Shown here piece by piece: positions 12,022-54,018 of a DNA stretch of 64,000 bases. The stretch lies in the NCBI GenBank assembly GCA_045534895.1, contig JAZSKN010000033.1, forward strand, positions 890 to 64,889, in the 5' to 3' direction. Origin of the DNA: Acutalibacteraceae bacterium (GTDB lineage Bacteria > Bacillota > Clostridia > Oscillospirales > Acutalibacteraceae). The notes under the pieces are model-generated. The model saw nothing but the letters and a program-made list of their open reading frames with translations. It did not search any database and was not told the origin of the DNA. Each line of letters starts with the position of its first letter. Position 1 is the first letter of the stretch. The position numbers were made by a program, and so were the translations under genes.

Positions 12022-12276
12022 ATGCCTGTATTATCAAGATTTTACGGAATAATTATAAGAATGTATTTTCAGCAATCGGAGCATAATCCACCGCATTTTC
12101 ATGCAATTTACGGCGAGCATACAGCAGCGATTTGTATTGAAGACGGTGGTGTTTTGGATGGCGCACTGCCAAAGAAAGCCCTTGAAATGGTGCTTGAATG
12201 GCGCGAAATTCACAAGGCTGATTTACTAAAAATTTGGGAAACTCAGGAGTTTATAGAGCTTAGTCCTTTAGAGTAA
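12022..12276 (+). CDS. DUF4160-family small protein
   Basis: MPVLSRFYGIIIRMYFQQSEHNPPHFHAIYGEH matches the DUF4160 pattern. The AAAGGAG RBS is at 12008-12014. The track start at 11971 is actually the -35 box. Confidence 0.7.
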   Translation: MPVLSRFYGIIIRMYFQQSEHNPPHFHAIYGEHTAAICIEDGGVLDGALPKKALEMVLEWREIHKADLLKIWETQEFIELSPLE

Positions 12277-12288
12277 GGGGGATTTAGA

Positions 12289-12723
12289 ATGTTTCATAAA
12301 GTAAAAAATGTTAATGCCTTACCAAATTATAGGCTATGTGTTCAATTTGCAGAGGGTGTTACAAAAATTTATGATGTGGCGCCGCTTTTTGAGAAATATA
12401 AATTTTTTATGCCATTAAAAGATAATGCCGAACTTTTTAGTTGTGTTACTGTTGACCAAGGTGGTTATGGCATCGTATGGAACGATGATATTGATGTTTC
12501 TTGCGATGAGTTGTGGGCAAATGGCGAAGTTATAGAAACACCGTTTGACGGACTTATGGCATTTAGTGATGCTACTTTTCTTTGGAATTTAAATGAAAGC
12601 ACACTTAGAAAAGCCATAAATTACGGCAAGCTTGTAAACGGTGTCGATGTTTGTAAGTTTGGTAAACAATGGGTAATTTCTATAGATGCAATGATAAGAG
12701 AATACGGAAATCCTGTTAGGTAA
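12289..12723 (+). CDS. DUF2442-domain protein fused to a C-terminal HTH
   Basis: The N-terminal ~75 aa are DUF2442-like (VNALPNYRLCVQFAEGVTKIYD). The C-terminus FLWNLNESTLRKAINYGKL..GKQWVISIDAM resembles an excisionase/MerR-type HTH. Confidence 0.6.
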   Translation: MFHKVKNVNALPNYRLCVQFAEGVTKIYDVAPLFEKYKFFMPLKDNAELFSCVTVDQGGYGIVWNDDIDVSCDELWANGEVIETPFDGLMAFSDATFLWNLNESTLRKAINYGKLVNGVDVCKFGKQWVISIDAMIREYGNPVR

Positions 12724-39313: not shown

Positions 39314-39928
39314 TTATAATATTACACTTGTAAAGCCTACCGCCTTGCCCAAAATGCGAATTTGGTTTAACTGCTCGCCGGTGTATACAAACGGTTGATA
39401 TTTTGAATTGCAGGCAACAAGTGTAATTGTGTTATCGGATATATAAACACGCTTTAACGTTGCCTCTTCATCAATAAGTACAGCGGCAATTTCACCGTTT
39501 TCTACTGTAGGCTGTTGACGTATATAAACAATATCGCCGTTATGAATACGAGCATCGATCATACTGTCACCTTTACATCGCAGTGCAAAGTCAGCGCATA
39601 TATTTTCGGGTACGGTAACTTCGCCTTCAAGATTTTCATTTGCAAGCACAGGTGTACCGCAAGCAATGGTACCCACAATTGGAATACGGTTCATTTTTGG
39701 AAAAGAAATAACATTGGTATATGATAAATAATCATCATCTATAAAAGAAGATGGGGGAACGTTAAAAATCTCAGACAGTTTTTTTATGGTTTCTCTTTTA
39801 AGGTTTTTTACTGTACCACACTCCCACTTTTGAACTGCGGCGCGTTGAACGCCAAGCATAGAACCAAGCTCTTCTTGTGAAAAGCCGTGTTCGGTACGTA
39901 GTTTTTTAATAAGAGCGCCTATATTCAT
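39314..39928 (-). CDS. Phage CI-like repressor (XRE HTH + S24 LexA-type peptidase)
   Basis: N-terminal HTH_3 (LIKKLRTEHGFSQEELGSMLGVQRAAVQKWE). The C-terminal S24 domain has a CKGDSM Ser and a ATLKRVY Lys. Confidence 0.8.
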   Translation of the reverse strand: MNIGALIKKLRTEHGFSQEELGSMLGVQRAAVQKWECGTVKNLKRETIKKLSEIFNVPPSSFIDDDYLSYTNVISFPKMNRIPIVGTIACGTPVLANENLEGEVTVPENICADFALRCKGDSMIDARIHNGDIVYIRQQPTVENGEIAAVLIDEEATLKRVYISDNTITLVACNSKYQPFVYTGEQLNQIRILGKAVGFTSVIL

Positions 39929-44203: not shown

Positions 44204-45091
44204 ATGACAAATACAATTCAACACGCAAGTAAATATGCAAACGAACTTGATAAGATGATAGTTCAGGAATCTAAGACAGGCTTTTTGGCCGACGGTAAGT
44301 TTAAGGCGCGCTTCACAGGCGCAAAAACGGTAAATATGCCACAGATTGACTTTGACGGTCTGGGTGACTATAGCCGAAAGGACGGTTACTCTAAGGGTGG
44401 CACAAACTTTACATACACCGCTTACGAGCTTAATCAGGAACGCAGTAAGCAGTTAATTATTGATGCGCAGGATGCTGACGAAATGGGTGTTTCCTCGCTT
44501 GTGGGTAAAATGGTTGGCGAATACACTCGAACAAAGGTGAATCCCGAAATAGATGCCTATGTGCTTTCAAAGCTTTACAACGTTGCAAACGAAAAGAACC
44601 ATGTAGATACCTATGACAGCACTGCAGTGGTTGAAACAATGCTTGAATGCATTAATAAGGCTGAGGCGGCAAGCGGCTACACAAACGAAAAAATGGTGGC
44701 TTTTGTAGACCCTGTTATGTATGCCGCGCTTATGACAAGCGACAAGCTTCAGCACAGCATTACCGTAAACGAATTTGAGCAGGGCGCTGTAAACGTTAAG
44801 GTAAAAGAGCTTAACGGTTGCGCTATTATTCCTGTAGCGGCAGACCGTATGCGTACCGAGTACAGCTTTAATGATACGGGCTTTGCGGCAAGTGCTGATG
44901 CGGGCTATATTAAGGCTATTGTAATGCCAAAGGGTGCGGCATCACTTGTAAAAAAGGTAGATAAGGTAGACATCTACACACCCGATATGGTACAGGATAT
45001 GGATGCATATAAGATTAACTTTAGACTATATTATGATCTATTTGTTACCGAAAATAAAAAGGACCTTGTTTTTGCAATTAGTGGCGAATAA
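44204..45091 (+). CDS. Putative major capsid protein
   Basis: 295 aa with a strong RBS, followed by a strong terminator and positioned after the scaffold-like gene. The family was not identified from sequence alone. Confidence 0.5.
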   Translation: MTNTIQHASKYANELDKMIVQESKTGFLADGKFKARFTGAKTVNMPQIDFDGLGDYSRKDGYSKGGTNFTYTAYELNQERSKQLIIDAQDADEMGVSSLVGKMVGEYTRTKVNPEIDAYVLSKLYNVANEKNHVDTYDSTAVVETMLECINKAEAASGYTNEKMVAFVDPVMYAALMTSDKLQHSITVNEFEQGAVNVKVKELNGCAIIPVAADRMRTEYSFNDTGFAASADAGYIKAIVMPKGAASLVKKVDKVDIYTPDMVQDMDAYKINFRLYYDLFVTENKKDLVFAISGE

Positions 45092-45304: not shown

Positions 45305-48058
45305 ATGGGAAAAGAGAAGAAAAAATGGTATCAAACAGGAGAGTTTGAAGATGGATATCAGTTTGGTGATATTTTTAGGACAGTAAAAAACAGTATAAGC
45401 GGTAAAGAGGAAGAAGTAGAAAAGGTTAAGAATATTACAGAAAAAAGTGGAACGAGTGCACAAATTCCTTTTGCGGCGGTTAAGGATGGTAGATTATCGG
45501 TTGATGTACCGGCACAGACTTTTGGATGGAAAAATGATGCTGAACGTGCGAGATTTAAAGCAGAGCACCCAATGGAGTATGCGGCTACAGGTGGTGTGAA
45601 GCTTGATACAAATGTTTTGTCGAAAAATAATATTCAACTGACTACAGAGCAACAAAATATTTTAGAAGAAGCACGGAAAAAAGATGAATATATCAAAAGC
45701 TTACAATATAAACTTGATGTTATAAATGTGAAAAACATAGAGAAAAAACGCAAGAACAGTCATTTGATTGCAGATAGCGAAATAGAATCCGAATTGAGAA
45801 TTAAATGGCTCAATGGCGTTGTGAATATGGATGAGCTTGCAACACAACTAAAAAAAGAGAATGATATTTATAATGCAAAAATTAAATTTGATAACGGTGA
45901 TGCGATAAGTCTAAATGAACGATTGTTGTTAACAGAAAACGGCGGAGAAAATTATACGGAAGGAAACACGAATAAAATTATTGACTTTTTGGCGCAAGAT
46001 AATCCAGAGAATATAAATGCTCGCGATACTGCAGAGAAAGCAAGAAAAAAGCAAAAAAATAATATACCGCTGACTCAAGAGGAAAAAACAGATATTTCTA
46101 ATTATGAAACGCGACGGCACATACAAAAAAGCATTCTTGAAAATAAATATGCTTTGGGTAGCGATATAAAGAAAAACAAAGAAAATATGAATACAATCGC
46201 CGCAATATCCTTATATAATGATGCGATATACGATACTGGAATTAATAAAACATTTAATCAAATGCAGTTATATATCAACACCGGATTCACAAGATATTTC
46301 CAAGATAGCATTAATACTGCAGAGATTTTCTTAACCGAGGACGCATATCACAAGGGTTTGACCGGTAACCGAGGGTCTAATGTAATTAAAAATGAACCCA
46401 AAAGCATGTACGAAATTGCGAATAGTGCTGTTGGTGAATATTTTGTGCAAAATGATATGAAGTTTAATAAGTTTGTACAGGACACAACAGTAAATCTGGC
46501 CAATAATACTATACCAATGTTGTTAAGCGGTGTAAGTGGTGGCGCTTCTATGGTGGCTAGTGGCTTGTCCGTTTTTGGAAGTTCGTATCGTGAAGCAGTG
46601 GAAATGGCACCGGATGTTGAAGAATGGCGATATTGGCTATACGCCGGAATGAATACCTCGGTTGAGTTGTGTATGGAAAAACTTTTGAGTGGTGATAAGA
46701 ATATTGCGGCGAATACGGGAAGTGAATTTACCGATGCTATGTTTAAGATGTTAACCAAAAACATCTCCAACAAAATGCTATTGGGCGGAGTGTATATACT
46801 GTCAAATAGCACGGGAGAGTTTGTTGAGGAAACTATACAAGGGCTTTTATCACCAGTTATGCAAGAATTAATTTTAGGCGTAGATGCTACATCTATATTG
46901 TCATCAAATAAAAATGAGCAATTAAACGCAATGAAAAATGCATTGTATGATGGTATGGTTGGGTTTGTATCGGCAGGTGTAACAACCGGTATGTTTATAA
47001 ACAGTACCATAGAGGGTATAGAACAAAGAAGAATAGTTGGAGAGTATTATAATAAATTATTTAACAATCTAAACATTGACTCAAAAAATGTTGCATTGTA
47101 TTTAAAAGAAATTTCGAATGGCGAAGGCATAAGATTATATAAATCGGCAAAAAAAGTTTTACAAGGCGATACTTCTAATGATGCAGTAGCAAATATGATG
47201 ATAGACGGTTTCGAACAAAGTCTTGAATCACAAAGGTTTATATATACAAAAATAGGTGAACAGTTAAATCGAAATAATAGGTATATAGTGTATAGTCTTA
47301 TAAAACAATATGACAAATTAAGTCAAAGTGAAATAGAACTTTCGAAAAGTATACATAAAACATATAATGAACTGATTAATACAAGTGAAAATACGAGCAG
47401 AGAGACATTTAATTATTTGGTAGGAAAACTTTCGACAACGATGGATGCTGTGTTGCCGAGAACTATTATGGCGTCGGAGATTAAGAAAAAAATTAATGCT
47501 GACATTAAAGAAAACCAAATGAAAAATAATAACAGTTCAATTGATGAAGTAGCAGTTGTTGATGGGATTTGGGAGGATTCACCAAATAAATCGAAAAATG
47601 TTGTCGAAAAAGGGCAGTTGGAAAGTGTTGAAAAGACAAAAGAAAATGGTATAATAGAGAAAACAAAGGTTCTAACGCTTGATGATTTGACAAAAGATGT
47701 TTTGAAAACAAAGCCATTGTATTCTCCTGTGCCAGAGAGGTGGATGCAAAATGGCGGAATTATAGAAATTGCAAATGATGGAAATTGGATATATACAAAC
47801 ACTGATGGAATAAGTGTTAAATATGTAGATGGATATCCAGATTTTAAGGGAGCAGGCTTAGTTATTCAAGAAGTCGATGTTGGAGAATTTGTAAGTCGCG
47901 AAGCAGACAAGAAAAAAGCAAAAGAATTAGTGCAGCAAAACCCAAATACAGAATGGCATCACCCGGCAAACAGTAATAAACTTCAAGAAATAGATGCAAA
48001 TATTCATAAACAATTTACTCATATTGGTGCAATTTCAAAAAATAAAAAAGGAGATTAG
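45305..48058 (+). CDS. Phage polymorphic toxin: 917-aa trunk with C-terminal WHH (HNH/EndoVII-fold) nuclease tip
   Basis: The C-terminus GYPDF...EVDVGEF..READKKKAKEL..NTEWHHPANSNKLQEIDANIHKQFTHIG fits the WHH toxin family. The tip follows the GIWEDSPNKSKNVVEKGQLE junction, and a SUKH immunity gene is 3 nt downstream. Confidence 0.7.
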   Translation: MGKEKKKWYQTGEFEDGYQFGDIFRTVKNSISGKEEEVEKVKNITEKSGTSAQIPFAAVKDGRLSVDVPAQTFGWKNDAERARFKAEHPMEYAATGGVKLDTNVLSKNNIQLTTEQQNILEEARKKDEYIKSLQYKLDVINVKNIEKKRKNSHLIADSEIESELRIKWLNGVVNMDELATQLKKENDIYNAKIKFDNGDAISLNERLLLTENGGENYTEGNTNKIIDFLAQDNPENINARDTAEKARKKQKNNIPLTQEEKTDISNYETRRHIQKSILENKYALGSDIKKNKENMNTIAAISLYNDAIYDTGINKTFNQMQLYINTGFTRYFQDSINTAEIFLTEDAYHKGLTGNRGSNVIKNEPKSMYEIANSAVGEYFVQNDMKFNKFVQDTTVNLANNTIPMLLSGVSGGASMVASGLSVFGSSYREAVEMAPDVEEWRYWLYAGMNTSVELCMEKLLSGDKNIAANTGSEFTDAMFKMLTKNISNKMLLGGVYILSNSTGEFVEETIQGLLSPVMQELILGVDATSILSSNKNEQLNAMKNALYDGMVGFVSAGVTTGMFINSTIEGIEQRRIVGEYYNKLFNNLNIDSKNVALYLKEISNGEGIRLYKSAKKVLQGDTSNDAVANMMIDGFEQSLESQRFIYTKIGEQLNRNNRYIVYSLIKQYDKLSQSEIELSKSIHKTYNELINTSENTSRETFNYLVGKLSTTMDAVLPRTIMASEIKKKINADIKENQMKNNNSSIDEVAVVDGIWEDSPNKSKNVVEKGQLESVEKTKENGIIEKTKVLTLDDLTKDVLKTKPLYSPVPERWMQNGGIIEIANDGNWIYTNTDGISVKYVDGYPDFKGAGLVIQEVDVGEFVSREADKKKAKELVQQNPNTEWHHPANSNKLQEIDANIHKQFTHIGAISKNKKGD
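47564..47633 (+). repeat. Trunk/tip junction repeat, copy 1 (in the expressed toxin gene)
   Basis: gggatttgggaggattcaccaaa...ttgtcgaaaaa...cagttggaaagtgttgaaaa shares identical runs of 23, 11 and 20 bp with copy 3. Confidence 0.8.
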
Positions 48059-48060
48059 TT

Positions 48061-48657
48061 ATGGCTTTTAATAAGTATGGAAAATTAGATGTTTCTATGG
48101 TTAATCAATTGGATGGAATATTAGGTTTTCAAGTGCCACAAGAATATAAAGATTTTTTGATTAATACAAATGGCGGACGTTTTGATTTTGAAGATGAACA
48201 TTATATAGTTGTAAAAAATAAAAAAATATGGATAGACGTTCTTTATGGGAACCAAAAAAATAAACGTTCAAGTTTGTTATTTTGGAATAATGAATATGGT
48301 GATGAAATTCCTGAGAATTCCATCATAATAGGTGATACACAAGATCATAACTTTTTAGTATATCTGTGCGCAGGTGAACAAAAAGGTATTTATTTGTGGG
48401 ATGATACAATGTGTGTTTGTGGTTTATCAGGTGATGGTAGGAATGCTTATTTTATTGCGAATGATATGAATGAATTTTTTAATATGTTTAATATTCAAAC
48501 CAAATTATTTTCTTCAAATGCTACTATATCAAATATAGATAAAAAAATCGGAGAAAGTAACATATTGTATAAGGCGCCAAACGAAAAGAAAATGCAAGTT
48601 ATAGACGCGATAACATTTAAGCGATTTATGCATCGTTGTGAGGATTTTATAATTTAA
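48061..48657 (+). CDS. SUKH/SMI1-KNR4 family immunity protein
   Basis: QVPQEYKDFLINTNGGRF...IIIGD....FLVY......GIYLWD is the SMI1/KNR4 pattern. It lies directly after the WHH tip. Confidence 0.75.
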   Translation: MAFNKYGKLDVSMVNQLDGILGFQVPQEYKDFLINTNGGRFDFEDEHYIVVKNKKIWIDVLYGNQKNKRSSLLFWNNEYGDEIPENSIIIGDTQDHNFLVYLCAGEQKGIYLWDDTMCVCGLSGDGRNAYFIANDMNEFFNMFNIQTKLFSSNATISNIDKKIGESNILYKAPNEKKMQVIDAITFKRFMHRCEDFII

Positions 48658-49064
48658 TATAATTGTTGGATTTTTAATGAAAAAGATTTGGATATAATAG
48701 TTATGTATTATCCAGAGTAGGAGTAATTATTGAAATAATAAGAGACAATGTTGATAAATTAATTGATAAAACAGATTACGAATATAAAAATGAATTTTCT
48801 GATAAAAAGGTGAATACTTTTTTTAATTATTGGCTATTTTTTGATCAAAAAGAATCAGAAATTGTTAAAATGTTAGGTATACCGTTAGATGTTGTGGTGT
48901 ATAGTAAATGGTATTGGAGCGAGCGATATAGGGTGAGTTATGAAGAATTATATAACGAGGAAATTCCAGGTGATCTTTAGGACACAAGGGGACGGTTCTA
49001 TTGTGCCTGCCCTTGTGTCTGTTGGGGTGGTATTAACTGGGCCGACGTAACATATTCTGCTTTA

Positions 49065-49769
49065 TTGGGCGGATTATCTTCTGGTGTATTTGAGTTATCG
49101 CCGAGTGTTTCATCAAATATTAAAAATAATAAGCTTAATCCAAATGAAGTTATTGAAGGTATTTGGGAGGATTCACCAAAAAGAGATAAAAATATTGTCG
49201 AAAAAAGTCAGTTGGAAACATTTGACAACAATAGTAATGATTTGTATAATAACAGTGAAATAAGATTATTAACGAGCGGAAATAGTGGCGGAAAAGCCAA
49301 ACCATATTCTGCAGATAATATTCCGCAATTTATAAATCAATATCTATACAAATTAAAAGATTATGGTGAGATTTTAGAAGTGAAAGAACCACCAAGTTTT
49401 TCTGATATCAGTTTAATGTCAAGGCAATCAGGAACTGAATTTGCATCAATAACCATAGGAGATAATAACTACATTATAAAGGGAGACAATAAAGGTACGC
49501 CAATTTCTAGTGAAATGTTTAAAAAAATTAGAGAAAACAAAGGAATATTAAATTGCCATTCACATCCTTTTATTGATGATTTTAGGGTTTCAAAAGAGGA
49601 TATTAATTTAGCCAAGCAGATGTATTGGCAAAAACAATTTTATATTGTTTCTCCCGATGGTAAATTTGCAACATATAATAGTAACGGAATCATTGATATA
49701 GATATTATAAGAAAAGAACTTGATGATTTGGATTTGGAATTTTATGCGGAATTACTCAGGGAGGATTAA
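49065..49769 (+). CDS. Orphan toxin module 2 (trunk end + junction + JAB/MPN-like tip); no credible start
   Basis: The frame is open from 48981 and the nominal TTG has no RBS. It encodes ..TYSALLGGLSSGVFELSPSVS..NPNEVIEGIWEDSPKRDKNIVEKSQLE, then a tip with CHSHPFIDDFRVSKED (H.H.x8.S..D, JAMM-like). Confidence 0.55.
   Translation: MGGLSSGVFELSPSVSSNIKNNKLNPNEVIEGIWEDSPKRDKNIVEKSQLETFDNNSNDLYNNSEIRLLTSGNSGGKAKPYSADNIPQFINQYLYKLKDYGEILEVKEPPSFSDISLMSRQSGTEFASITIGDNNYIIKGDNKGTPISSEMFKKIRENKGILNCHSHPFIDDFRVSKEDINLAKQMYWQKQFYIVSPDGKFATYNSNGIIDIDIIRKELDDLDLEFYAELLRED
49158..49218 (+). repeat. Trunk/tip junction repeat, copy 2
   Basis: 58 bp (49161-49218) are identical to 50878-50935. Confidence 0.85.
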
Positions 49770-49770
49770 T

Positions 49771-50049
49771 ATGCTAAGTGAAGATGTAGCAATTATTAAA
49801 GGTTTAAAGAAAATTGCTGAGATTTTTGGAATTGAGTATGTAAAAAAACATAAAGATGCGCCTATATGTAGGAGAAGAGAAGGTGATAAACTCATTTTTT
49901 CGTGTCTATATGAAGATGAAGATCAAAGGCCTGATTTAAAACCCGATCACTTAGGGTGGACGGTTTTTGCTGTGGTTGAAGTGAATTTAAAAAAAGAAAC
50001 AGTTAATATTATAGATTATGTTTTACCGGATGGAACCTCAAAACGATAG
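49771..50049 (+). CDS. Putative immunity protein for module 2
   Basis: 92 aa with a GGGAGGA RBS. The ATG lies 1 nt after the toxin-module stop. No family recognised, so the call is positional. Confidence 0.5.
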   Translation: MLSEDVAIIKGLKKIAEIFGIEYVKKHKDAPICRRREGDKLIFSCLYEDEDQRPDLKPDHLGWTVFAVVEVNLKKETVNIIDYVLPDGTSKR

Positions 50050-50114
50050 AATATTAGTAACACAGGGGATTAACACGCTAACCGTCCTCCGTGTTACCTG
50101 AACAAGCATTTTAA

Positions 50115-50176
50115 AAAAAGACAGGGTGGAAGCCTTGTCTTTTAATTTTGGGATTCAAAAAGTGCGACGAGTGTTA
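50115..50176 (+). repeat. 62-bp direct repeat, left copy (contains a terminator hairpin)
   Basis: aaaaagacagggtggaagccttgtcttttaattttgggattcaaaaagtgcgacgagtgtta has one mismatch to 51903-51964. Confidence 0.85.
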
Positions 50177-50304
50177 AGTCGTTTTTAAATTCTGTTGATA
50201 GTGAATTAAATGATTTTGTTGCTCGTGTAAAAAACGGTAGTAAGAAATTTGAACGCTATAAGATTTCAGAGGTAAGCGCACGCGAAGCGGATGATATTAA
50301 AAAT

Positions 50305-51426
50305 TTGCTTGGTATTGATGTTCAGGGTTACACACATAATATAAACAGTGATGGGATAAGGCATATACTTAAACGACATGGCGAAAAGGGACAGCAAGAT
50401 AATACGATGTCGAATGTTGACGATGTAGCTCGTATTGGTTGGGTTATAAATAATTACGATGCGGTTGAATTGATAATAGAAGATGGCAAGCAATCTTATA
50501 GTACGGGATTTGCAAATAAAAACAATAGTCCGGCACCGCAAATAAGATATAGCAAAAAAATAAACGGCACCTACTATGTAGTAGAAGCCATTTTTGAAAA
50601 CAAAAACAATAAACTATGGGTACAATCTGCATATTTGAGTAAAAATAGAGAAGACGTTACGCAAGTCCCCGATGCAGCAGATAAGCCCCCCGAGGTAACG
50701 GCTAAAACCGACCTTCCTTCTCCGTCTTCCAAATTTAGTTTATCACAGGACGTAAAAAAAGTCAATAATGATTACATAAGTAAAGAAGCAAGCTCGCAAG
50801 AAGAGAATGCTTCTTTTTTTGATTATAATTTAGAAAAAACCACACCAAAAATTAATCCCGATGAAGTGATTTCGGGGATTTGGGAGGATTCACCAAAAAG
50901 AGATAAAAATATTGTCGAAAAAAGTCAGTTGGAAAGTGTTGAAAATGTTGGGGATAACTGGTATAATGACAATAATATAATAACTGATGGTAGCCATTTG
51001 GTTAATGACAAGTTAAAGCCGAATGTAAAATATAAGTCCGGTGAGTATGACTATATTTATGCAACCGATCAATCAGGAAGAATAGTCGATTTACATACTG
51101 ATGAATTACAATATACTGAAAGAGATGAGCGCTTAAAACATAATGCTAATTCGCTTGGTAAAGAAATTGGCGATCATGCCGGTCATTTGATAGGAGATCG
51201 ATATGGTGGTTCACCGGATATAGATAATATTGTTTCGCAGTCAGGACTTGTAAATTTAAGCGAATATAAAAAAATAGAAAACATTTGGGCTAGAGCGTTA
51301 GATAGCGGACAAAAAGTTGGCGTCGATATTAAAGTACAATATGAAGGTAATAGTATGAGGCCGTCCTCATTTATTGTTAATTACACTATTGACGGAATTA
51401 AAACGCAAACAACCATAGAGAATTGA
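50305..51426 (+). CDS. Orphan toxin module 3: PBECR-like domain + junction + EssD/YeeF-type (Endonuclease_NS_2) nuclease tip; no credible start
   Basis: The frame is open from 50146 with no RBS. READDIKNLLGIDVQGYTHNINSDGIRHILKRHGEKG is typical of PBECR domains in polyvalent proteins. It is followed by GIWEDSPKRDKNIVEKSQLE and then GDHAGHLIGDRYGGSPDIDNIVSQ...W..AL..G..V.V.I...Y.G.S.RP. Confidence 0.6.
   Translation: MLGIDVQGYTHNINSDGIRHILKRHGEKGQQDNTMSNVDDVARIGWVINNYDAVELIIEDGKQSYSTGFANKNNSPAPQIRYSKKINGTYYVVEAIFENKNNKLWVQSAYLSKNREDVTQVPDAADKPPEVTAKTDLPSPSSKFSLSQDVKKVNNDYISKEASSQEENASFFDYNLEKTTPKINPDEVISGIWEDSPKRDKNIVEKSQLESVENVGDNWYNDNNIITDGSHLVNDKLKPNVKYKSGEYDYIYATDQSGRIVDLHTDELQYTERDERLKHNANSLGKEIGDHAGHLIGDRYGGSPDIDNIVSQSGLVNLSEYKKIENIWARALDSGQKVGVDIKVQYEGNSMRPSSFIVNYTIDGIKTQTTIEN
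50875..50945 (+). repeat. Trunk/tip junction repeat, copy 3
   Basis: See copies 1 and 2. Confidence 0.85.
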
Positions 51427-51440
51427 TGGAGGAAATAGAT

Positions 51441-51887
51441 ATGGCTAAAGTTTTTGAAGATTATTTTTCGGAATTGCAAGCGGATATGGTGGGCATCTGT
51501 ATGGAATACGTAGAGTATCAGGCAGATACAATATACATATATTGTTGTTGTGAAGGTAGAATGATTCATAGTGATTATTTTTATGAGATTGATGGACGAA
51601 TTGTACAAAAACAGCAAGTTAATGATGTTTCTTTTAGAAGCACTGCTATTCCTCAAAATGAAAGCACGTGTTTAAATATATTGATAAACGATGTGCGTGA
51701 ATTAAAAAAGCTTTGCATCGAATACGATAGACCAATGCCAACTCAAATTAAGATGATATATAACGTCAAGCAAAATTCACTTGATGCTAAGTATAAATAC
51801 GACAATCAATGGTTGAATCATAAAACTAAATCATCACCTGATATTTTTGTTGAGTGGTATGAGGAAGTTAAAAATTCAAAGAATTAA
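51441..51887 (+). CDS. DUF600/YezG-like immunity protein for module 3
   Basis: 148 aa with a TGGAGGA RBS. FSELQADMVGICMEYVEYQADTIYIYCCCEG...SDYFYEI resembles the DUF600 immunity proteins that pair with YeeF/EssD nucleases. Confidence 0.5.
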   Translation: MAKVFEDYFSELQADMVGICMEYVEYQADTIYIYCCCEGRMIHSDYFYEIDGRIVQKQQVNDVSFRSTAIPQNESTCLNILINDVRELKKLCIEYDRPMPTQIKMIYNVKQNSLDAKYKYDNQWLNHKTKSSPDIFVEWYEEVKNSKN

Positions 51888-51902
51888 ATATGTGTGATAT
51901 TG

Positions 51903-51964
51903 AAAAAGACAGGGTGGAAGCCTTGTCTTTTAATTTTGGGATTTAAAAAGTGCGACGAGTGTTA
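51903..51964 (+). repeat. 62-bp direct repeat, right copy
   Basis: See 50115-50176. Confidence 0.85.
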
Positions 51965-52107
51965 CATATTCTGCGTTGCTTGGTGGATTGTCTTCGGGTA
52001 TATTTGAGCTTTCGCCAAGTGTTTCGACAAATAATCAAAACAATAAACTAAATCCAAATGAAGTGATTTCGGGGATTTATAACCATATAACAATTAAACA
52101 GTATTAG
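51964..52107 (+). pseudogene. Tip-less trunk-end remnant
   Basis: It encodes TYSALLGGLSSGIFELSPSVSTNNQNNKLNPNEVISGI and then breaks exactly where WEDSP should start (..GIYNHITIKQY*). Confidence 0.65.
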
Positions 52108-52164
52108 TCAAATAAGCGGTTGTCAATTGGGCGACCGCTTATAATTTTTAAAAAGGATGATTAA

Positions 52165-54018
52165 ATGAACAATATTAAATTAAATGTAAAAACAATTTGG
52201 TCAGAGTATGAAAACGGTCAGCAATACAAAAACAGTATTGGCGACAAGGGTATTCACGACCAAGCAAGAATAAACGAGCGATTTTTTGTTGGTGATCAGT
52301 GGCACGGTGTAACCGCCGGAAACGAAAAGCCGCTTACGCGAAGAAATATAATTAAAAGAATTGGTGAATATAAAATGGCGACCGTAGGTAGCGCTCCTAT
52401 CGCAGTAAATTATAGCGCAGAGGGTGTGCCCGATGTTACAGATATTGAGGCAATATCGGATGTAAAAGCGCAAATGATGCAAGGCAATTTACCCGAAGAA
52501 AAAGTAAACGATACCGAAATATCGGTTATTATGGGCGCATTAACCAATTATTTTAAAATAACTGCCGAACGCCTTAAATATGACGATAAAAAGGATATGA
52601 TGCTTAAAAATGCGTATATTTCGGGCACGGGTATTTTGTATACATATTGGGACAGCAAAATTAAAACCGGTCTTTATGCCGATATGGAAAGAAAGGTGGC
52701 AATTACGGGTGATATTGCCTGTGAGGTTTTAGATATTGAAAACGTGGTTTTTGGTGACCCTAATAATGAGGACGTTGAAAGTCAGCCATATATTATAATT
52801 GCGCGTCGATTAGACGTAGATGCGGTAAGGCGCGAGGCAGAGCTTTACGGTCAGCCTATAGAGAATATTTTACCCGACGGCACAGACGGTTATTACCGCA
52901 ATGCTGGTGATCGCGGCGAGGACGAGCCAAATGATTCAAACCGAGTTACTGTTATTACAAAGCTGTACAAAAAATATGATGATAACGGCAACCATACCGT
53001 TTACGGTAAAACCGTAACAAAAAACGCCGTTGTAAGACCCGAATGGAATTTGCTGATACACCGTTACCCAATAGCAAAATTTGTTTGGGAAAGAAGAAAA
53101 AGCTGTGCATATGGTGACAGTGAGGTAAGTTACCAAATACCAAACCAAATCGCGCTAAATCAGGCGCATTCGATATCGGTGTGGGCTATGCAAAATACCG
53201 GCATGCCAAAAACCATTATTAACGGTGATCTTATACCCGACGGTATTTCAAATGATCCCGCCGAGGTTATAAAAATTTACGGTAACGCCGAGGATATGGT
53301 GAGCGCAATAAGATATGTTACGCCGCCGAATTATGGCGCGGCATTTATTAATTTTACCGATGCATTTGCTCAAAACATTCTTTTTGATAACGGCGCAAAC
53401 GATGCGGCGCTTGGTAATTTGCGTCCTGACAATGCAACGGCTATTGTACAGGCGCGCGAAGCGGCGCTTGCACCCATGCAGATGTATCAAAACCGTTTTT
53501 ACAGCGCAAACGAGGACGTTGCGCGCATATGGGCGGATTTTTGGATAACTATGTACGGAAAAAGATCGATAAAAATTAATGACAATGGCAACATAAGCTA
53601 CATAGTTTTCGATGCTGACCGCTATAAAGACTTGGTTATTACCGCTAAAATAGATGTTGGCGCATCAACTCTTTGGAGCGAGGCTGTGTCGATATCTAAT
53701 TTAGGTAATTTGTTGGCAAGTGGCATGATAAGCTTTACCGAGTATCTTGAACGTTTGCCAAAAGGATTAATTCCCGACGTTAATGGTCTTATAAACGCAA
53801 GAAAACAACAAGAACAGCAGGCACAGGCAATAAATATGCCGCAAGAGGCAACGACCAATAGTATAACCAACGGTGAATTGCTTGCTGATTTACAGGCAAA
53901 TAACCCGCAAATATATGAGCAATTAATGAATCTACCGCCGGAGGATCAAGAATATGCTATGCAAATGATACGCGACAGCGCAAACATTAATACGCAAGAA
54001 GCATTTAAAATGAATTAA
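52165..54018 (+). CDS. Putative portal protein
   Basis: 617 aa with an acidic C-terminus and an N-terminal ERFFVGDQWHG-type block. The call rests on size and position and was not verified by profile search. Confidence 0.5.
   Translation: MNNIKLNVKTIWSEYENGQQYKNSIGDKGIHDQARINERFFVGDQWHGVTAGNEKPLTRRNIIKRIGEYKMATVGSAPIAVNYSAEGVPDVTDIEAISDVKAQMMQGNLPEEKVNDTEISVIMGALTNYFKITAERLKYDDKKDMMLKNAYISGTGILYTYWDSKIKTGLYADMERKVAITGDIACEVLDIENVVFGDPNNEDVESQPYIIIARRLDVDAVRREAELYGQPIENILPDGTDGYYRNAGDRGEDEPNDSNRVTVITKLYKKYDDNGNHTVYGKTVTKNAVVRPEWNLLIHRYPIAKFVWERRKSCAYGDSEVSYQIPNQIALNQAHSISVWAMQNTGMPKTIINGDLIPDGISNDPAEVIKIYGNAEDMVSAIRYVTPPNYGAAFINFTDAFAQNILFDNGANDAALGNLRPDNATAIVQAREAALAPMQMYQNRFYSANEDVARIWADFWITMYGKRSIKINDNGNISYIVFDADRYKDLVITAKIDVGASTLWSEAVSISNLGNLLASGMISFTEYLERLPKGLIPDVNGLINARKQQEQQAQAINMPQEATTNSITNGELLADLQANNPQIYEQLMNLPPEDQEYAMQMIRDSANINTQEAFKMN

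What the first reader, a model, noticed from the sequence alone, without database searches (positions are those of the whole stretch)
50115..51964. Cassette 3 is a 1.79-kb unit flanked by 62-bp direct repeats and combines a PBECR domain with an EssD/YeeF-type nuclease and DUF600-like immunity
The repeats (50115-50176 and 51903-51964, one mismatch) each contain a terminator hairpin and end in GTGCGACGAGTGTTA. After the right copy the sequence continues CATATTCTGCG..., which is the trunk end, as it does at the left border of cassette 2 (49043). After the left copy a different frame opens with no start codon. It encodes a PBECR-type domain (..DGIRHILKRHGEKG, 50350-50382), a linker, the GIWEDSP junction, and a nuclease with DHAGHLIGDRYGG (51172-51186). 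The immunity candidate 51441-51887 is DUF600/YezG-like, the usual partner of that nuclease family in type VII secretion toxin loci. The unit therefore looks like a piece of a polyvalent protein captured into the array by recombination at the repeat.
Basis: partly seen in the sequence, partly recalled or inferred. Interest (0 to 1): 0.65.

Follow-up and report, generated by a model that had tools for sequence, protein, structure and literature searches.

The report
Orphan toxin-immunity cassette in a prophage
This is a silent spare toxin tip (an RNase-like domain plus a DNase) with its antidote gene, parked behind the active toxin gene of a prophage in an uncultured gut or rumen Clostridia bacterium. 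The cassette is an ordinary kind of spare part, but its family carries a promoter inside the coding sequence that probably keeps every antidote gene switched on.

Summary
Two 62-bp direct repeats (50115-50176 and 51903-51964, 61/62 identical) flank a 1.73-kb segment. That segment holds an ORF with no start codon: PBECR3 (Pfam E 3e-18), a linker, the GIWEDSP junction and an EssD/EsaD-type nuclease (Pfam E 4e-29; PDB 8GUO E 5e-20). A 148-aa gene follows. It misses the Pfam DUF600 model, but its high-confidence model matches EsaG and the DUF600 protein BH3703.

The interpretation needs correcting. PBECR3-linker-junction-toxin is the normal 3' end of full-length alleles of this same phage gene (P0212, P0211). 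A near-identical nuclease/immunity pair is the active tip of the main gene in another prophage (L009). Cassette 3 is therefore a displaced (orphan) 3' module, not a foreign capture.

The repeat is composite. About 35-41 bp are the transcription terminator that follows many immunity genes in related arrays. The other 20 bp are a spacer found nowhere else. Both downstream joints share only GTTA. No empty single-site array was found.

One further finding: a near-consensus promoter lies 64 nt after the junction in 16 of 18 junction copies. Its -10 hexamer is 100% conserved inside variable sequence. Each cassette is probably a self-contained immunity transcription unit.

The parts
50115..50176 (+). 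Left 62-bp direct repeat: terminator hairpin 50116-50143 plus T-tract (conserved part to about 50155), then the 20-nt spacer AAAAAGTGCGACGAGTGTTA (50157-50176). It ends the cassette 2 / old imm131 transcription unit.
   Evidence: The upstream flank 50099-50114 resembles the 3' flank of imm131 in L002/L013.
50146..51426 (+). Orphan toxin ORF of 426 codons, open from inside the left repeat, with no start codon or RBS: PBECR3, linker, junction, EssD-type nuclease.
   Evidence: No stop codons. dN/dS is 0.07 (nuclease) and 0.135 (PBECR3) against relatives.
50275..50649 (+). PBECR3 domain (predicted BECR-fold RNase) with the HILKRHGE motif.
   Evidence: Pfam PF18812, E 3.2e-18, profile positions 4-111 of 115. 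75% aa identity to the PBECR3 of the full-length main gene in L011.
50650..50874 (+). Low-complexity linker (..EDVTQVPDAADKPP..DVKKVNNDYISKEASSQEENASFF..KINPDEVIS). Related versions (there ..EKVNNDYISKEASSQ..) occur in orphans and in full-length genes that carry PBECR3 or LPD3.
   Evidence: P0002, P0061, P0066, P0207.
50875..50895 (+). GIWEDSP junction, the core of the conserved block 50852-50980 shared with the main gene (47541-47669) and cassette 2 (49135-49263).
   Evidence: D1; exact runs of 23 nt to the main gene and 58 nt to cassette 2.
50939..50967 (+). Predicted internal sigma-A promoter: TTGAAA, 17 nt, TGgTATAAT. Predicted transcription start near 50975.
   Evidence: Present at the same offset in 16 of 18 junction copies. 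Mean pairwise identity: -10 100%, -35 93%, spacer 48%, downstream 38%.
51019..51396 (+). Endonuclease_NS_2 / EssD-EsaD-YeeF-type nuclease domain with DHAGHLIGDRYGG.
   Evidence: Pfam PF13930, E 4.3e-29, full profile. PDB 8guo_B, E 5e-20.
51441..51887 (+). Immunity gene (148 aa, EsaG/YezG/DUF600 fold), with RBS GGAGG at 51427-51431.
   Evidence: 93% identical to the immunity gene next to the active nuclease tip in L009.
51903..51964 (+). Right 62-bp direct repeat: the terminator of the cassette 3 immunity unit, plus the same spacer.
   Evidence: The upstream flank matches the flank after the homologous immunity gene in L009.
51961..52107 (+). Trunk-end remnant (..V|TYSALLGGLSSGIFELSPSV..NPNEVISGI|YNHITIKQY*), cut exactly at the junction. 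It is followed by the terminator 52112-52142 and the portal gene at 52165.
   Evidence: (D2). L002 has an analogous cut remnant before its portal gene.
45305..48058 (+). Context: the active main gene (917 aa). Conserved N-terminus, helical trunk, junction at 47564, internal promoter 47628-47655, WHH-type C-terminal toxin.
48061..48657 (+). Context: SUKH/SMI1-KNR4 immunity gene of the main toxin.
   Evidence: PF09346, E 3e-12.
48673..48977 (+). Context: decayed cassette remnant. It holds the last codons of a toxin plus the 5' two-thirds of the imm131 gene, with ATG changed to ATT.
   Evidence: 99.3% identical to L002 11474-11778.
49021..50049 (+). Context: orphan cassette 2. Trunk-B end, junction at 49158, promoter 49222-49250, a toxin of unknown family, and a 92-aa immunity candidate at 49771-50049. 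Hairpin elements flank it at 48978-49020 and 50057-50098.

Best explanation
Cassette 3 is an orphan (displaced) 3' module of the prophage's polymorphic toxin gene. That gene lies between the major head and portal genes. It encodes a protein with a conserved N-terminus, a variable helical body, optional polyvalent-protein domains (PBECR3 or LPD3), a linker, the GIWEDSP junction, and an exchangeable toxin followed by its immunity gene.

Cassette 3 keeps the last 426 codons of a PBECR3-type allele (PBECR3, linker, junction, EssD/EsaD-type DNase) but has no start codon. The toxin part is therefore silent (inferred).

The EsaG/DUF600-fold immunity gene has its own RBS. It is probably transcribed from a sigma-A promoter embedded 64 nt downstream of the junction and terminated by the hairpin in the right repeat (inferred from sequence and conservation). 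This would protect the lysogen against relatives armed with this nuclease.

The roughly 90-nt conserved junction block allows homologous recombination with the main gene. Such an event would swap the nuclease onto the active trunk (inferred by analogy with CDI/Rhs orphans).

Each 62-bp repeat is the family's cassette terminator plus a 20-nt spacer. One copy ends the upstream unit and the other ends cassette 3. Their near-identity, including a lineage-specific T in the stem, shows that one copy derives from the other. The likely routes are unequal or Campbell-type recombination through the shared terminator, or an illegitimate join at the GTTA microhomology. The repeats now allow cassette 3 to be lost by looping out.
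For: Shown:
- Domain assignments and the immunity fold.
- Full-length alleles with PBECR3 + linker + junction + toxin: P0212 and P0211. The LPD3 equivalent is P0207.
- The same prophage backbone and integration site in L011 and L014.
- Homology to the L011 main gene starts at 50174.
- The nuclease/immunity pair sits at the tip of the main gene in L009, 91% nt identical over 50756-51944.
- There is no decay: zero stops, dN/dS 0.07 for the nuclease, 0.20 for the immunity gene and 0.135 for PBECR3.
- The ORF has no start codon with an RBS, while the immunity gene has GGAGG 8 nt before its ATG.
- The promoter is at a fixed offset in 16 of 18 junction copies, with an invariant TATAAT in three codon contexts (GII/DII, WYN, LYN) inside variable sequence.
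- The terminator is conserved after at least five different immunity genes in 7 contigs.
- The flanks of the two repeat copies match the 3' flanks of two different immunity genes.
- Junction homology has exact runs of 23-58 nt.

Precedent: internal promoters next to the conserved motif of main and orphan rhs genes (PMC7043789).
Against: - No expression data exist. The promoter and terminator are predictions, and the terminator was not listed by the simple consensus scan.
- No relative with a single 62-bp site or with the 20-nt spacer was found, so the event that made the repeats is not resolved.
- Virion packaging and injection of the trunk protein is inferred only from gene position and from the polyvalent-protein literature. 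The trunk model was too poor to test it (pLDDT 46.7).
- The window comes from a metagenome-assembled contig, so a chimeric join across a 62-bp repeat cannot be fully excluded.
- Low-level translation of the nuclease from a non-canonical start is not excluded.
Confidence: 0.7

Rival explanations
1. A fragment of an unrelated polyvalent protein, for example from the phage's giant polyvalent gene, was captured into the array by recombination at a dedicated 62-bp site. PBECR3 plus nuclease would then be a new chimera.
For: The cassette is exactly bounded by the repeats. The phage does encode a giant polyvalent ORF (57523 to beyond 63999; ART-PolyVal and Zeta_toxin), and its L014 equivalent carries a PBECR3. 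A looped-out circle integrating by a single crossover at the repeat would give exactly this structure.
Against: PBECR3-linker-junction-toxin is native to full-length alleles of the same gene (P0211, P0212). tblastn found no other PBECR3-like sequence in the window. Related orphans carry PBECR3 tails joined to several different toxins (P0002, P0065; L002, L004, L006). The conserved part of the repeat is a terminator, and the spacer is unique.
Confidence: 0.12
2. Cassette 3 is an expressed, self-contained toxin-antitoxin-like module. The internal transcript yields a small amount of active nuclease from a non-canonical start, together with the immunity protein, as reported for Salmonella Rhs main and orphan C-terminal toxins. 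It would then act in addiction or host physiology rather than as a silent spare.
For: Strong purifying selection on the nuclease (dN/dS 0.07). The promoter lies just upstream of the nuclease domain. There is an in-frame TTG at 50998 at the start of the domain. Rhs precedent in PMC7043789.
Against: No RBS-like sequence precedes any in-frame start after the promoter. The low dN/dS is equally explained by recent or recurrent residence at the tip of a main gene, as in L009.
Confidence: 0.1
3. The arrangement is an assembly artefact. The metagenome assembler joined strain variants across the 62-bp repeat, so the two repeat copies and cassette 3 do not coexist in one genome.
For: The source is a MAG contig of 103 kb. 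A 62-bp repeat is longer than some assembler k-mers. The arrays are clearly polymorphic between samples.
Against: An independent assembly (L004) shows the homologous nuclease/immunity cassette flanked by direct repeats of at least 118 bp that contain the same terminator, in the same gene order (imm131, terminator, PBECR-nuclease-imm148, terminator). The flanks of each window copy are the ones expected for their neighbours.
Confidence: 0.05

Closest known systems
Orphan CT/immunity modules of CDI (cdiA-CT/cdiI) and Rhs systems, including the internal promoters of Salmonella rhs main and orphan genes (PMC3150448, PMC3967940, PMC7043789)
   Same: A full-length gene with a conserved trunk, a short conserved junction motif and a variable toxin tip with its immunity gene. 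Downstream are start-less fragments that keep some trunk, the junction, another toxin and another immunity gene. The junction homology allows swapping. A promoter next to the conserved motif is present in both the main and the orphan copies.
   Different: The carrier here is a phage structural-module gene in a Gram-positive anaerobe, not a type V or type VI secretion substrate. The junction motif is GIWEDSP rather than VENN or PxxxxDPxGL. The promoter lies downstream of the motif rather than upstream. The retained trunk piece can be a whole enzymatic domain (PBECR3). Nothing here has been tested experimentally.
MuF polymorphic toxins of temperate phages (Jamet et al. 2017, PMC5576092)
   Same: A prophage-encoded multidomain protein in the head-morphogenesis region, with a variable C-terminal toxin and an adjacent immunity gene. 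Delivery with the virion contents is presumed.
   Different: No MuF (Phage_Mu_F) domain is detected in the trunk. That paper mentions neither orphans nor promoters. Here there are multi-cassette orphan arrays and a promoter embedded at the junction.
EsaD(EssD)/EsaG of S. aureus and YeeF/YezG of B. subtilis (type VII secretion nuclease toxins with DUF600 immunity; PDB 8GUO; PMC9484751)
   Same: The toxin domain is the same family (E 5e-20 to EssD). The immunity protein has the EsaG/DUF600 fold (TM 0.75). The immunity gene lies immediately downstream.
   Different: There is no LXG/WXG or other type VII targeting domain. The nuclease is fused to a phage trunk. The immunity sequence lies outside the Pfam YezG-like model. 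There is one immunity gene, not a string of esaG paralogues.
Polyvalent proteins of phages and conjugative elements (Iyer et al. 2017, PMC5512222)
   Same: PBECR3 and LPD3 are signature domains of that class. The genes are encoded among virion genes. The same prophage also has a classical giant polyvalent ORF (ART-PolyVal, Zeta toxin).
   Different: Polyvalent proteins were described as not following the polymorphic-toxin plan. Here a polyvalent-type body ends in a classical exchangeable toxin tip, with immunity genes and orphan cassettes.

Membership tests
Endonuclease_NS_2 / EssD-EsaD-YeeF nuclease toxins | Match to PF13930 above the gathering score over the whole domain | tested here: met
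   101.8 bits against cutoff 27, profile positions 1-132 of 132. EssD 8guo_B, E 5e-20.
Endonuclease_NS_2 / EssD-EsaD-YeeF nuclease toxins | Conserved His-containing active-site motif (DHxGHLI..GG) | tested here: met
   GDHAGHLIGDRYGG at 51169-51210, shared with all close homologues. Catalysis itself was not tested.
PBECR3 (phage BECR-fold RNase of polyvalent proteins) | Match to PF18812 above the gathering score | tested here: met
   66.1 bits against cutoff 30, profile positions 4-111 of 115.
PBECR3 (phage BECR-fold RNase of polyvalent proteins) | [quoted passage not shown] 2017) | tested here: inconclusive
   HILKRHGE is conserved in the window and in P0005, P0006, P0211 and P0212. Residue-level mapping onto the published alignment was not done.
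YezG-like / DUF600 / EsaG immunity proteins | Match to PF04634 | tested here: not met
   No hit for the window protein even at E 10. A profile of 32 homologues finds no PDB sequence. Only 3 of 32 homologues hit PF04634 (best E 7.8e-6).
YezG-like / DUF600 / EsaG immunity proteins | EsaG/BH3703 fold | tested here: met
   Model pLDDT 93.8. Foldseek: 8guo_A and 8gup_A (EsaG), E 2.4e-7, TM 0.75-0.76; then 2ia1 and 3i0t (DUF600), E about 1e-5. The next hits are at E > 0.07.
YezG-like / DUF600 / EsaG immunity proteins | Encoded immediately downstream of an EssD-type nuclease, which it neutralises | tested here: inconclusive
   Adjacency is met in the window, L004, L006 and L009 and in the fused read-through P0008. 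Neutralisation cannot be tested with these tools.
Polymorphic toxin system with orphan modules | Full-length genes that share an N-terminal trunk and a junction motif but carry different C-terminal toxins, each followed by an immunity gene | tested here: met
   Eighteen trunk homologues carry WHH, GH-E, NS_2 and unknown tips. The loci show SUKH, Imm33 and DUF600-type immunity genes downstream.
Polymorphic toxin system with orphan modules | The orphan lacks the N-terminal trunk and a start codon, but keeps junction homology to the main gene | tested here: met
MuF polymorphic toxins | N-terminal MuF (Phage_Mu_F) domain | tested here: not met
   No Pfam, NCBIfam or PHROG hit in the trunk of the 917-aa protein. 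The trunk structure model was too poor for a fold test.
Type VII secretion (LXG/WXG100) toxins | N-terminal LXG or WXG100 targeting domain | tested here: not met
   Absent from the cassette and from the main gene. These domains are present only in distant nuclease homologues from Bacillus.
Integron-type gene cassette | An attC-like recombination site at each cassette end and an adjacent integrase | tested here: not met
   The conserved part of the repeat is a hairpin with a T-tract that follows immunity genes. No integrase was seen among the array genes scanned (44.2-56.6 kb) or in the gene tables of the related loci. Cassette 5' ends differ between relatives.

The most novel reading that the evidence does not exclude
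These Oscillospiraceae prophages carry an undescribed family of virion-associated toxins that are both polyvalent and polymorphic, and that lack a MuF domain. In this reading the conserved junction acts at the DNA level as a portable promoter. Every cassette, active or orphan, would then be an autonomous immunity-expression unit: promoter, untranslated toxin remnant, RBS, immunity gene, terminator. The shared terminator and junction blocks would serve as the homology that shuffles, adds and deletes cassettes without a dedicated recombinase. Lysogens would accumulate a constitutively expressed immunity repertoire against toxins injected by rival phages. An incoming genome would express its antidote at once from host RNA polymerase.
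Probability: 0.3. Interest if true: 0.72.

Novelty: new variant of a known kind. Interest (0 to 1): 0.5.

Why it matters
Orphan toxin/immunity cassettes are well known for contact-dependent inhibition, Rhs and type VII systems. Arrays of them inside the structural module of temperate phages of gut or rumen Clostridia, on a trunk that mixes polyvalent-protein domains with an exchangeable toxin tip, did not turn up in the papers searched here.

If the junction-embedded promoter is real, it explains how silent orphans still pay their way: their immunity genes stay on while the late operon is repressed. It also gives a simple, testable rule for where the variable part of a cassette begins, namely at the transcription start.

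The result links two literatures that were treated as separate: polyvalent proteins and polymorphic toxins.

Tried and rejected
- Megablast of 44.0-54.1 kb against GenBank phages gave no match. tblastn of the trunk and of cassette 3 against phages gave only distant toxin-tip hits.
- The IMG/VR scan with the trunk found no relatives. The scan with a portal alignment found one short contig, L015.
- Exact scans for the spacer part of the repeat: viral contigs 0; genome contigs only two chance hits in cyanobacteria; JGI metagenomes 0. The terminator pattern gave 0 in viral contigs and one JGI contig, L013.
- I tested whether the 27 nt after the hairpin are a diverged trunk fragment, because W and V lie in the same register as YWGGIDWENV. 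By hand count only about 12 of 28 nt match, so I dropped the idea. Only the last 3-4 nt (GTTA) are shared with either continuation.
- An integron-like reading was rejected (see the membership table).
- Rfam found nothing in 44-53 kb.
- The AlphaFold model of the 772-aa trunk reached only pLDDT 46.7 and was all-helical, so it was not used for fold search.
- Exact look-ups of the window's own cassette proteins found no other contigs.
- tblastn with cassette 3's PBECR3 found no second copy in the window.
Full report
Setting. The window holds a prophage of an uncultured Clostridia/Oscillospiraceae bacterium. The host's sugar kinase and a 757-aa host protein fall in 90%-identity clusters whose named members come from such MAGs. 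The prophage starts after aldolase and PfkB genes with a LexA-like repressor at 39314-39928. The same insertion site and gene order occur in L011 and L014. The structural module reads: terminase; major head 44204-45091 (phrog_422, E 1e-69); a 917-aa gene at 45305-48058; an array of short genes; portal 52165-54018 (phrog_156). A giant ORF runs from 57523 beyond the end of the window. It is at least 2159 aa and carries ART-PolyVal and Zeta_toxin domains.

The observation. The two 62-bp repeats are real (61/62 identical, spacing 1788) and far beyond chance. Each folds into a 12-bp hairpin followed by AATTTT, although the simple terminator scan did not list it. Identity ends sharply on both sides. 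The frame after the left copy is open from 50146 to 51426 and has no start codon with a ribosome-binding site. It contains PBECR3 (PF18812, E 3e-18) and Endonuclea_NS_2 (PF13930, E 4e-29). The nuclease matches S. aureus EssD in PDB 8GUO/8GUN at E 5e-20.

The immunity candidate. The gene at 51441-51887 has GGAGG 8 nt before its ATG. It hits no Pfam, NCBIfam or PHROG model. It has 275 homologues at E <= 0.001. A few of them are named DUF600, and 3 of 32 sampled reach PF04634 YezG-like. Its AlphaFold model (pLDDT 93.8) matches EsaG first (8guo_A, the partner chain of EssD in that entry; E 2.4e-7, TM 0.75) and then the DUF600 protein BH3703. Nothing else scores below E 0.07. The DUF600 assignment is therefore right by fold and wrong by the Pfam threshold.

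What the ORF is. Homologues of the trunk share the N-terminus MGKEKKKWYQTGEFEDGYQFGD and then differ in body and tip.
- P0212 (1156 aa, NCBI MAG) reads N-terminus, body, PBECR3, linker, junction, then the same WHH toxin as the window's main gene.
- P0211 (926 aa, the main gene of L011/L012) has a PBECR3 75% identical to that of cassette 3, then a frameshift in an A-run, and continues into linker, junction and toxin.
- P0207 and the L009 main gene carry LPD3 in the same position.
- Nucleotide homology between the L011 main gene and the window starts at 50174, three bases before the repeat ends.
- The nuclease/immunity pair is the active tip of the main gene in L009, 91% nt identical over 50756-51944, with 93% immunity protein identity.
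- Related arrays (L002-L006, L013) contain many orphans that start with a shorter PBECR3 tail (from KKINGTYYVVEA, window equivalent 50551) joined to GH-E, WHH or NS_2 tips.

Cassette 3 is therefore the displaced 3' end of a PBECR3-type allele of this gene. It is unusual only in keeping the whole PBECR3 domain. It shows no decay: there are no stops, and dN/dS is 0.07 for the nuclease, 0.20 for the immunity gene and 0.135 for PBECR3.

What the repeat is. Positions 50116 to about 50150-50155 are a terminator module that follows imm148, imm131, imm135, Imm33 and other immunity genes in seven related contigs. Downstream of it the relatives carry other spacers: a 40-nt one before PBECR3 tails, and another before linker-only orphans. 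The window's 20-nt spacer AAAAAGTGCGACGAGTGTTA was found in none of 12 related loci and in none of three public collections.

The flank upstream of the left copy resembles the 3' flank of imm131. The flank upstream of the right copy resembles that of imm148 in L009. Each copy thus sits where a cassette terminator belongs. Both copies share a T in the stem (GCCTTGTC) where all relatives have C, so one copy was recently derived from, or converted by, the other. The trunk-type homology of the right copy starts at 51961 (D2) and the PBECR-type homology of the left copy at 50174. The two joints therefore share only GTTA.

These facts fit three routes: unequal crossing-over between related arrays, Campbell-type insertion of a looped-out cassette through the terminator, or an illegitimate join at the microhomology. 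The data do not decide between them. In L004 the homologous cassette is flanked by direct repeats of at least 118 bp (terminator, spacer, PBECR tail) in the same gene order. Repeat-flanked cassettes are therefore normal in this family.

How it probably works. The three best promoter matches on the + strand of 44.9-52.3 kb lie just after the three junctions: 47628-47655, 49222-49250 and 50939-50967, scoring 11-12 of 12, two of them with an extended -10. Across the window and its relatives, 16 of 18 distinct junction copies carry TTGAAA or TTGACA, 16-17 nt, then TATAAT at offset +64. Mean pairwise identity is 93% for the -35, 48% for the spacer, 100% for the -10 and 38% downstream. The hexamer is kept in different codon contexts and phases (GGT ATA ATA, GAT ATA ATA, TGG TAT AAT, TTG TAT AAT). 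This points to selection on the DNA rather than on the protein.

After this promoter, cassette 3 has no in-frame start with an RBS until the immunity gene. I therefore propose that each cassette is an immunity transcription unit ended by the hairpin. The toxin part is expressed only when it sits on a full trunk in the late operon. The junction block (exact runs of 23 nt to the main gene and 58 nt to cassette 2) is the substrate for tip swapping. All of these steps are inferred. The nearest experimental precedent is the internal promoters of Salmonella rhs main and orphan genes (PMC7043789).

Delivery of the trunk with the virion is inferred from gene position and from the arguments made for polyvalent and MuF proteins (PMC5512222; PMC5576092). 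The trunk has no MuF domain, and its model was too poor to test a fold.

Array history. Positions 48673-48977 are a 99.3% copy of the end of a toxin plus the first two-thirds of imm131, with ATG mutated to ATT. The 3' flank of imm131 reappears at 50099-50150. Cassette 2, bounded by hairpin elements at 48978-49020 and 50057-50098, thus interrupts an older cassette. The last remnant before the portal gene is cut exactly at GI|W in both the window and L002.

Comparison and novelty. The parts are known families, and the logic is that of CDI/Rhs orphans. Three things did not turn up in the papers I searched: a polyvalent-type trunk with exchangeable toxin tips, orphan arrays inside a prophage head module, and a junction-embedded promoter conserved across toxin types. 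The finding as stated is an ordinary orphan cassette. The family it belongs to is a new variant of a known kind.

Noticed in passing
window 47628-47655, 49222-49250, 50939-50967; also L001, L002, L004, L006, L009, L011, L013, L014: A near-consensus sigma-A promoter lies at a fixed offset (+64 nt) after the GIWEDSP junction in 16 of 18 junction copies. TATAAT is invariant within variable sequence and is kept in different codon phases.
   Followed up: yes
window 48978-49020 and 50057-50098; L011 13816-13831, 14466-14481, 14492-14507; L015 3250-3267: A family-specific hairpin element (core ACACAAGGGGACGGTTCT, or its complement) sits at cassette borders and deletion joints in three different prophage backbones. 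It flanks cassette 2 in inverted orientation. In L015 it joins a truncated trunk directly to the pre-portal region. It is not found elsewhere in the window or in IMG/VR. Its role is unexplained.
   Followed up: partly
window 48673-48977: A decayed cassette remnant, 99.3% identical to L002 11474-11778: a toxin tail plus the imm131 gene with its start codon changed from ATG to ATT, truncated by the cassette 2 insertion. Such high identity in an otherwise 75-80% identical backbone implies very recent exchange.
   Followed up: partly
window 57523 to beyond 63999: A giant ORF of at least 2159 aa with ART-PolyVal and Zeta_toxin domains. Its equivalent in L014 is 4068 aa with PBECR3 and a faint MuF_C hit. 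It is a classical polyvalent protein in the same prophage.
   Followed up: partly
window 51961-52107; L002 about 12025-12450; L009 2293-2460: The last array element before the portal gene is always a trunk or linker remnant. It is cut at the junction codons GI|W in the window and in L002, and just after the -35 hexamer in L009. The right-hand breakpoints therefore differ between phages.
   Followed up: partly
L011 about 12680-12700 (same in L012): The PBECR3-type main gene has a -1 frameshift in an A7-8 run between PBECR3 and the linker, seen in two assemblies. It could be a pseudogene, a sequencing error or a slippery site.
   Followed up: no
window 49047-49769 and 49771-50049: The cassette 2 toxin tip (with ..NCHSHPF..) and its 92-aa partner match no Pfam, NCBIfam or PHROG family. 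They are a possible new toxin/immunity pair.
   Followed up: no
L015 2851-3290: An IMG/VR relative in which the toxin gene is reduced to about 140 N-terminal codons (frameshifted) and joined to the pre-portal region. The toxin locus is therefore dispensable for at least some members.
   Followed up: partly
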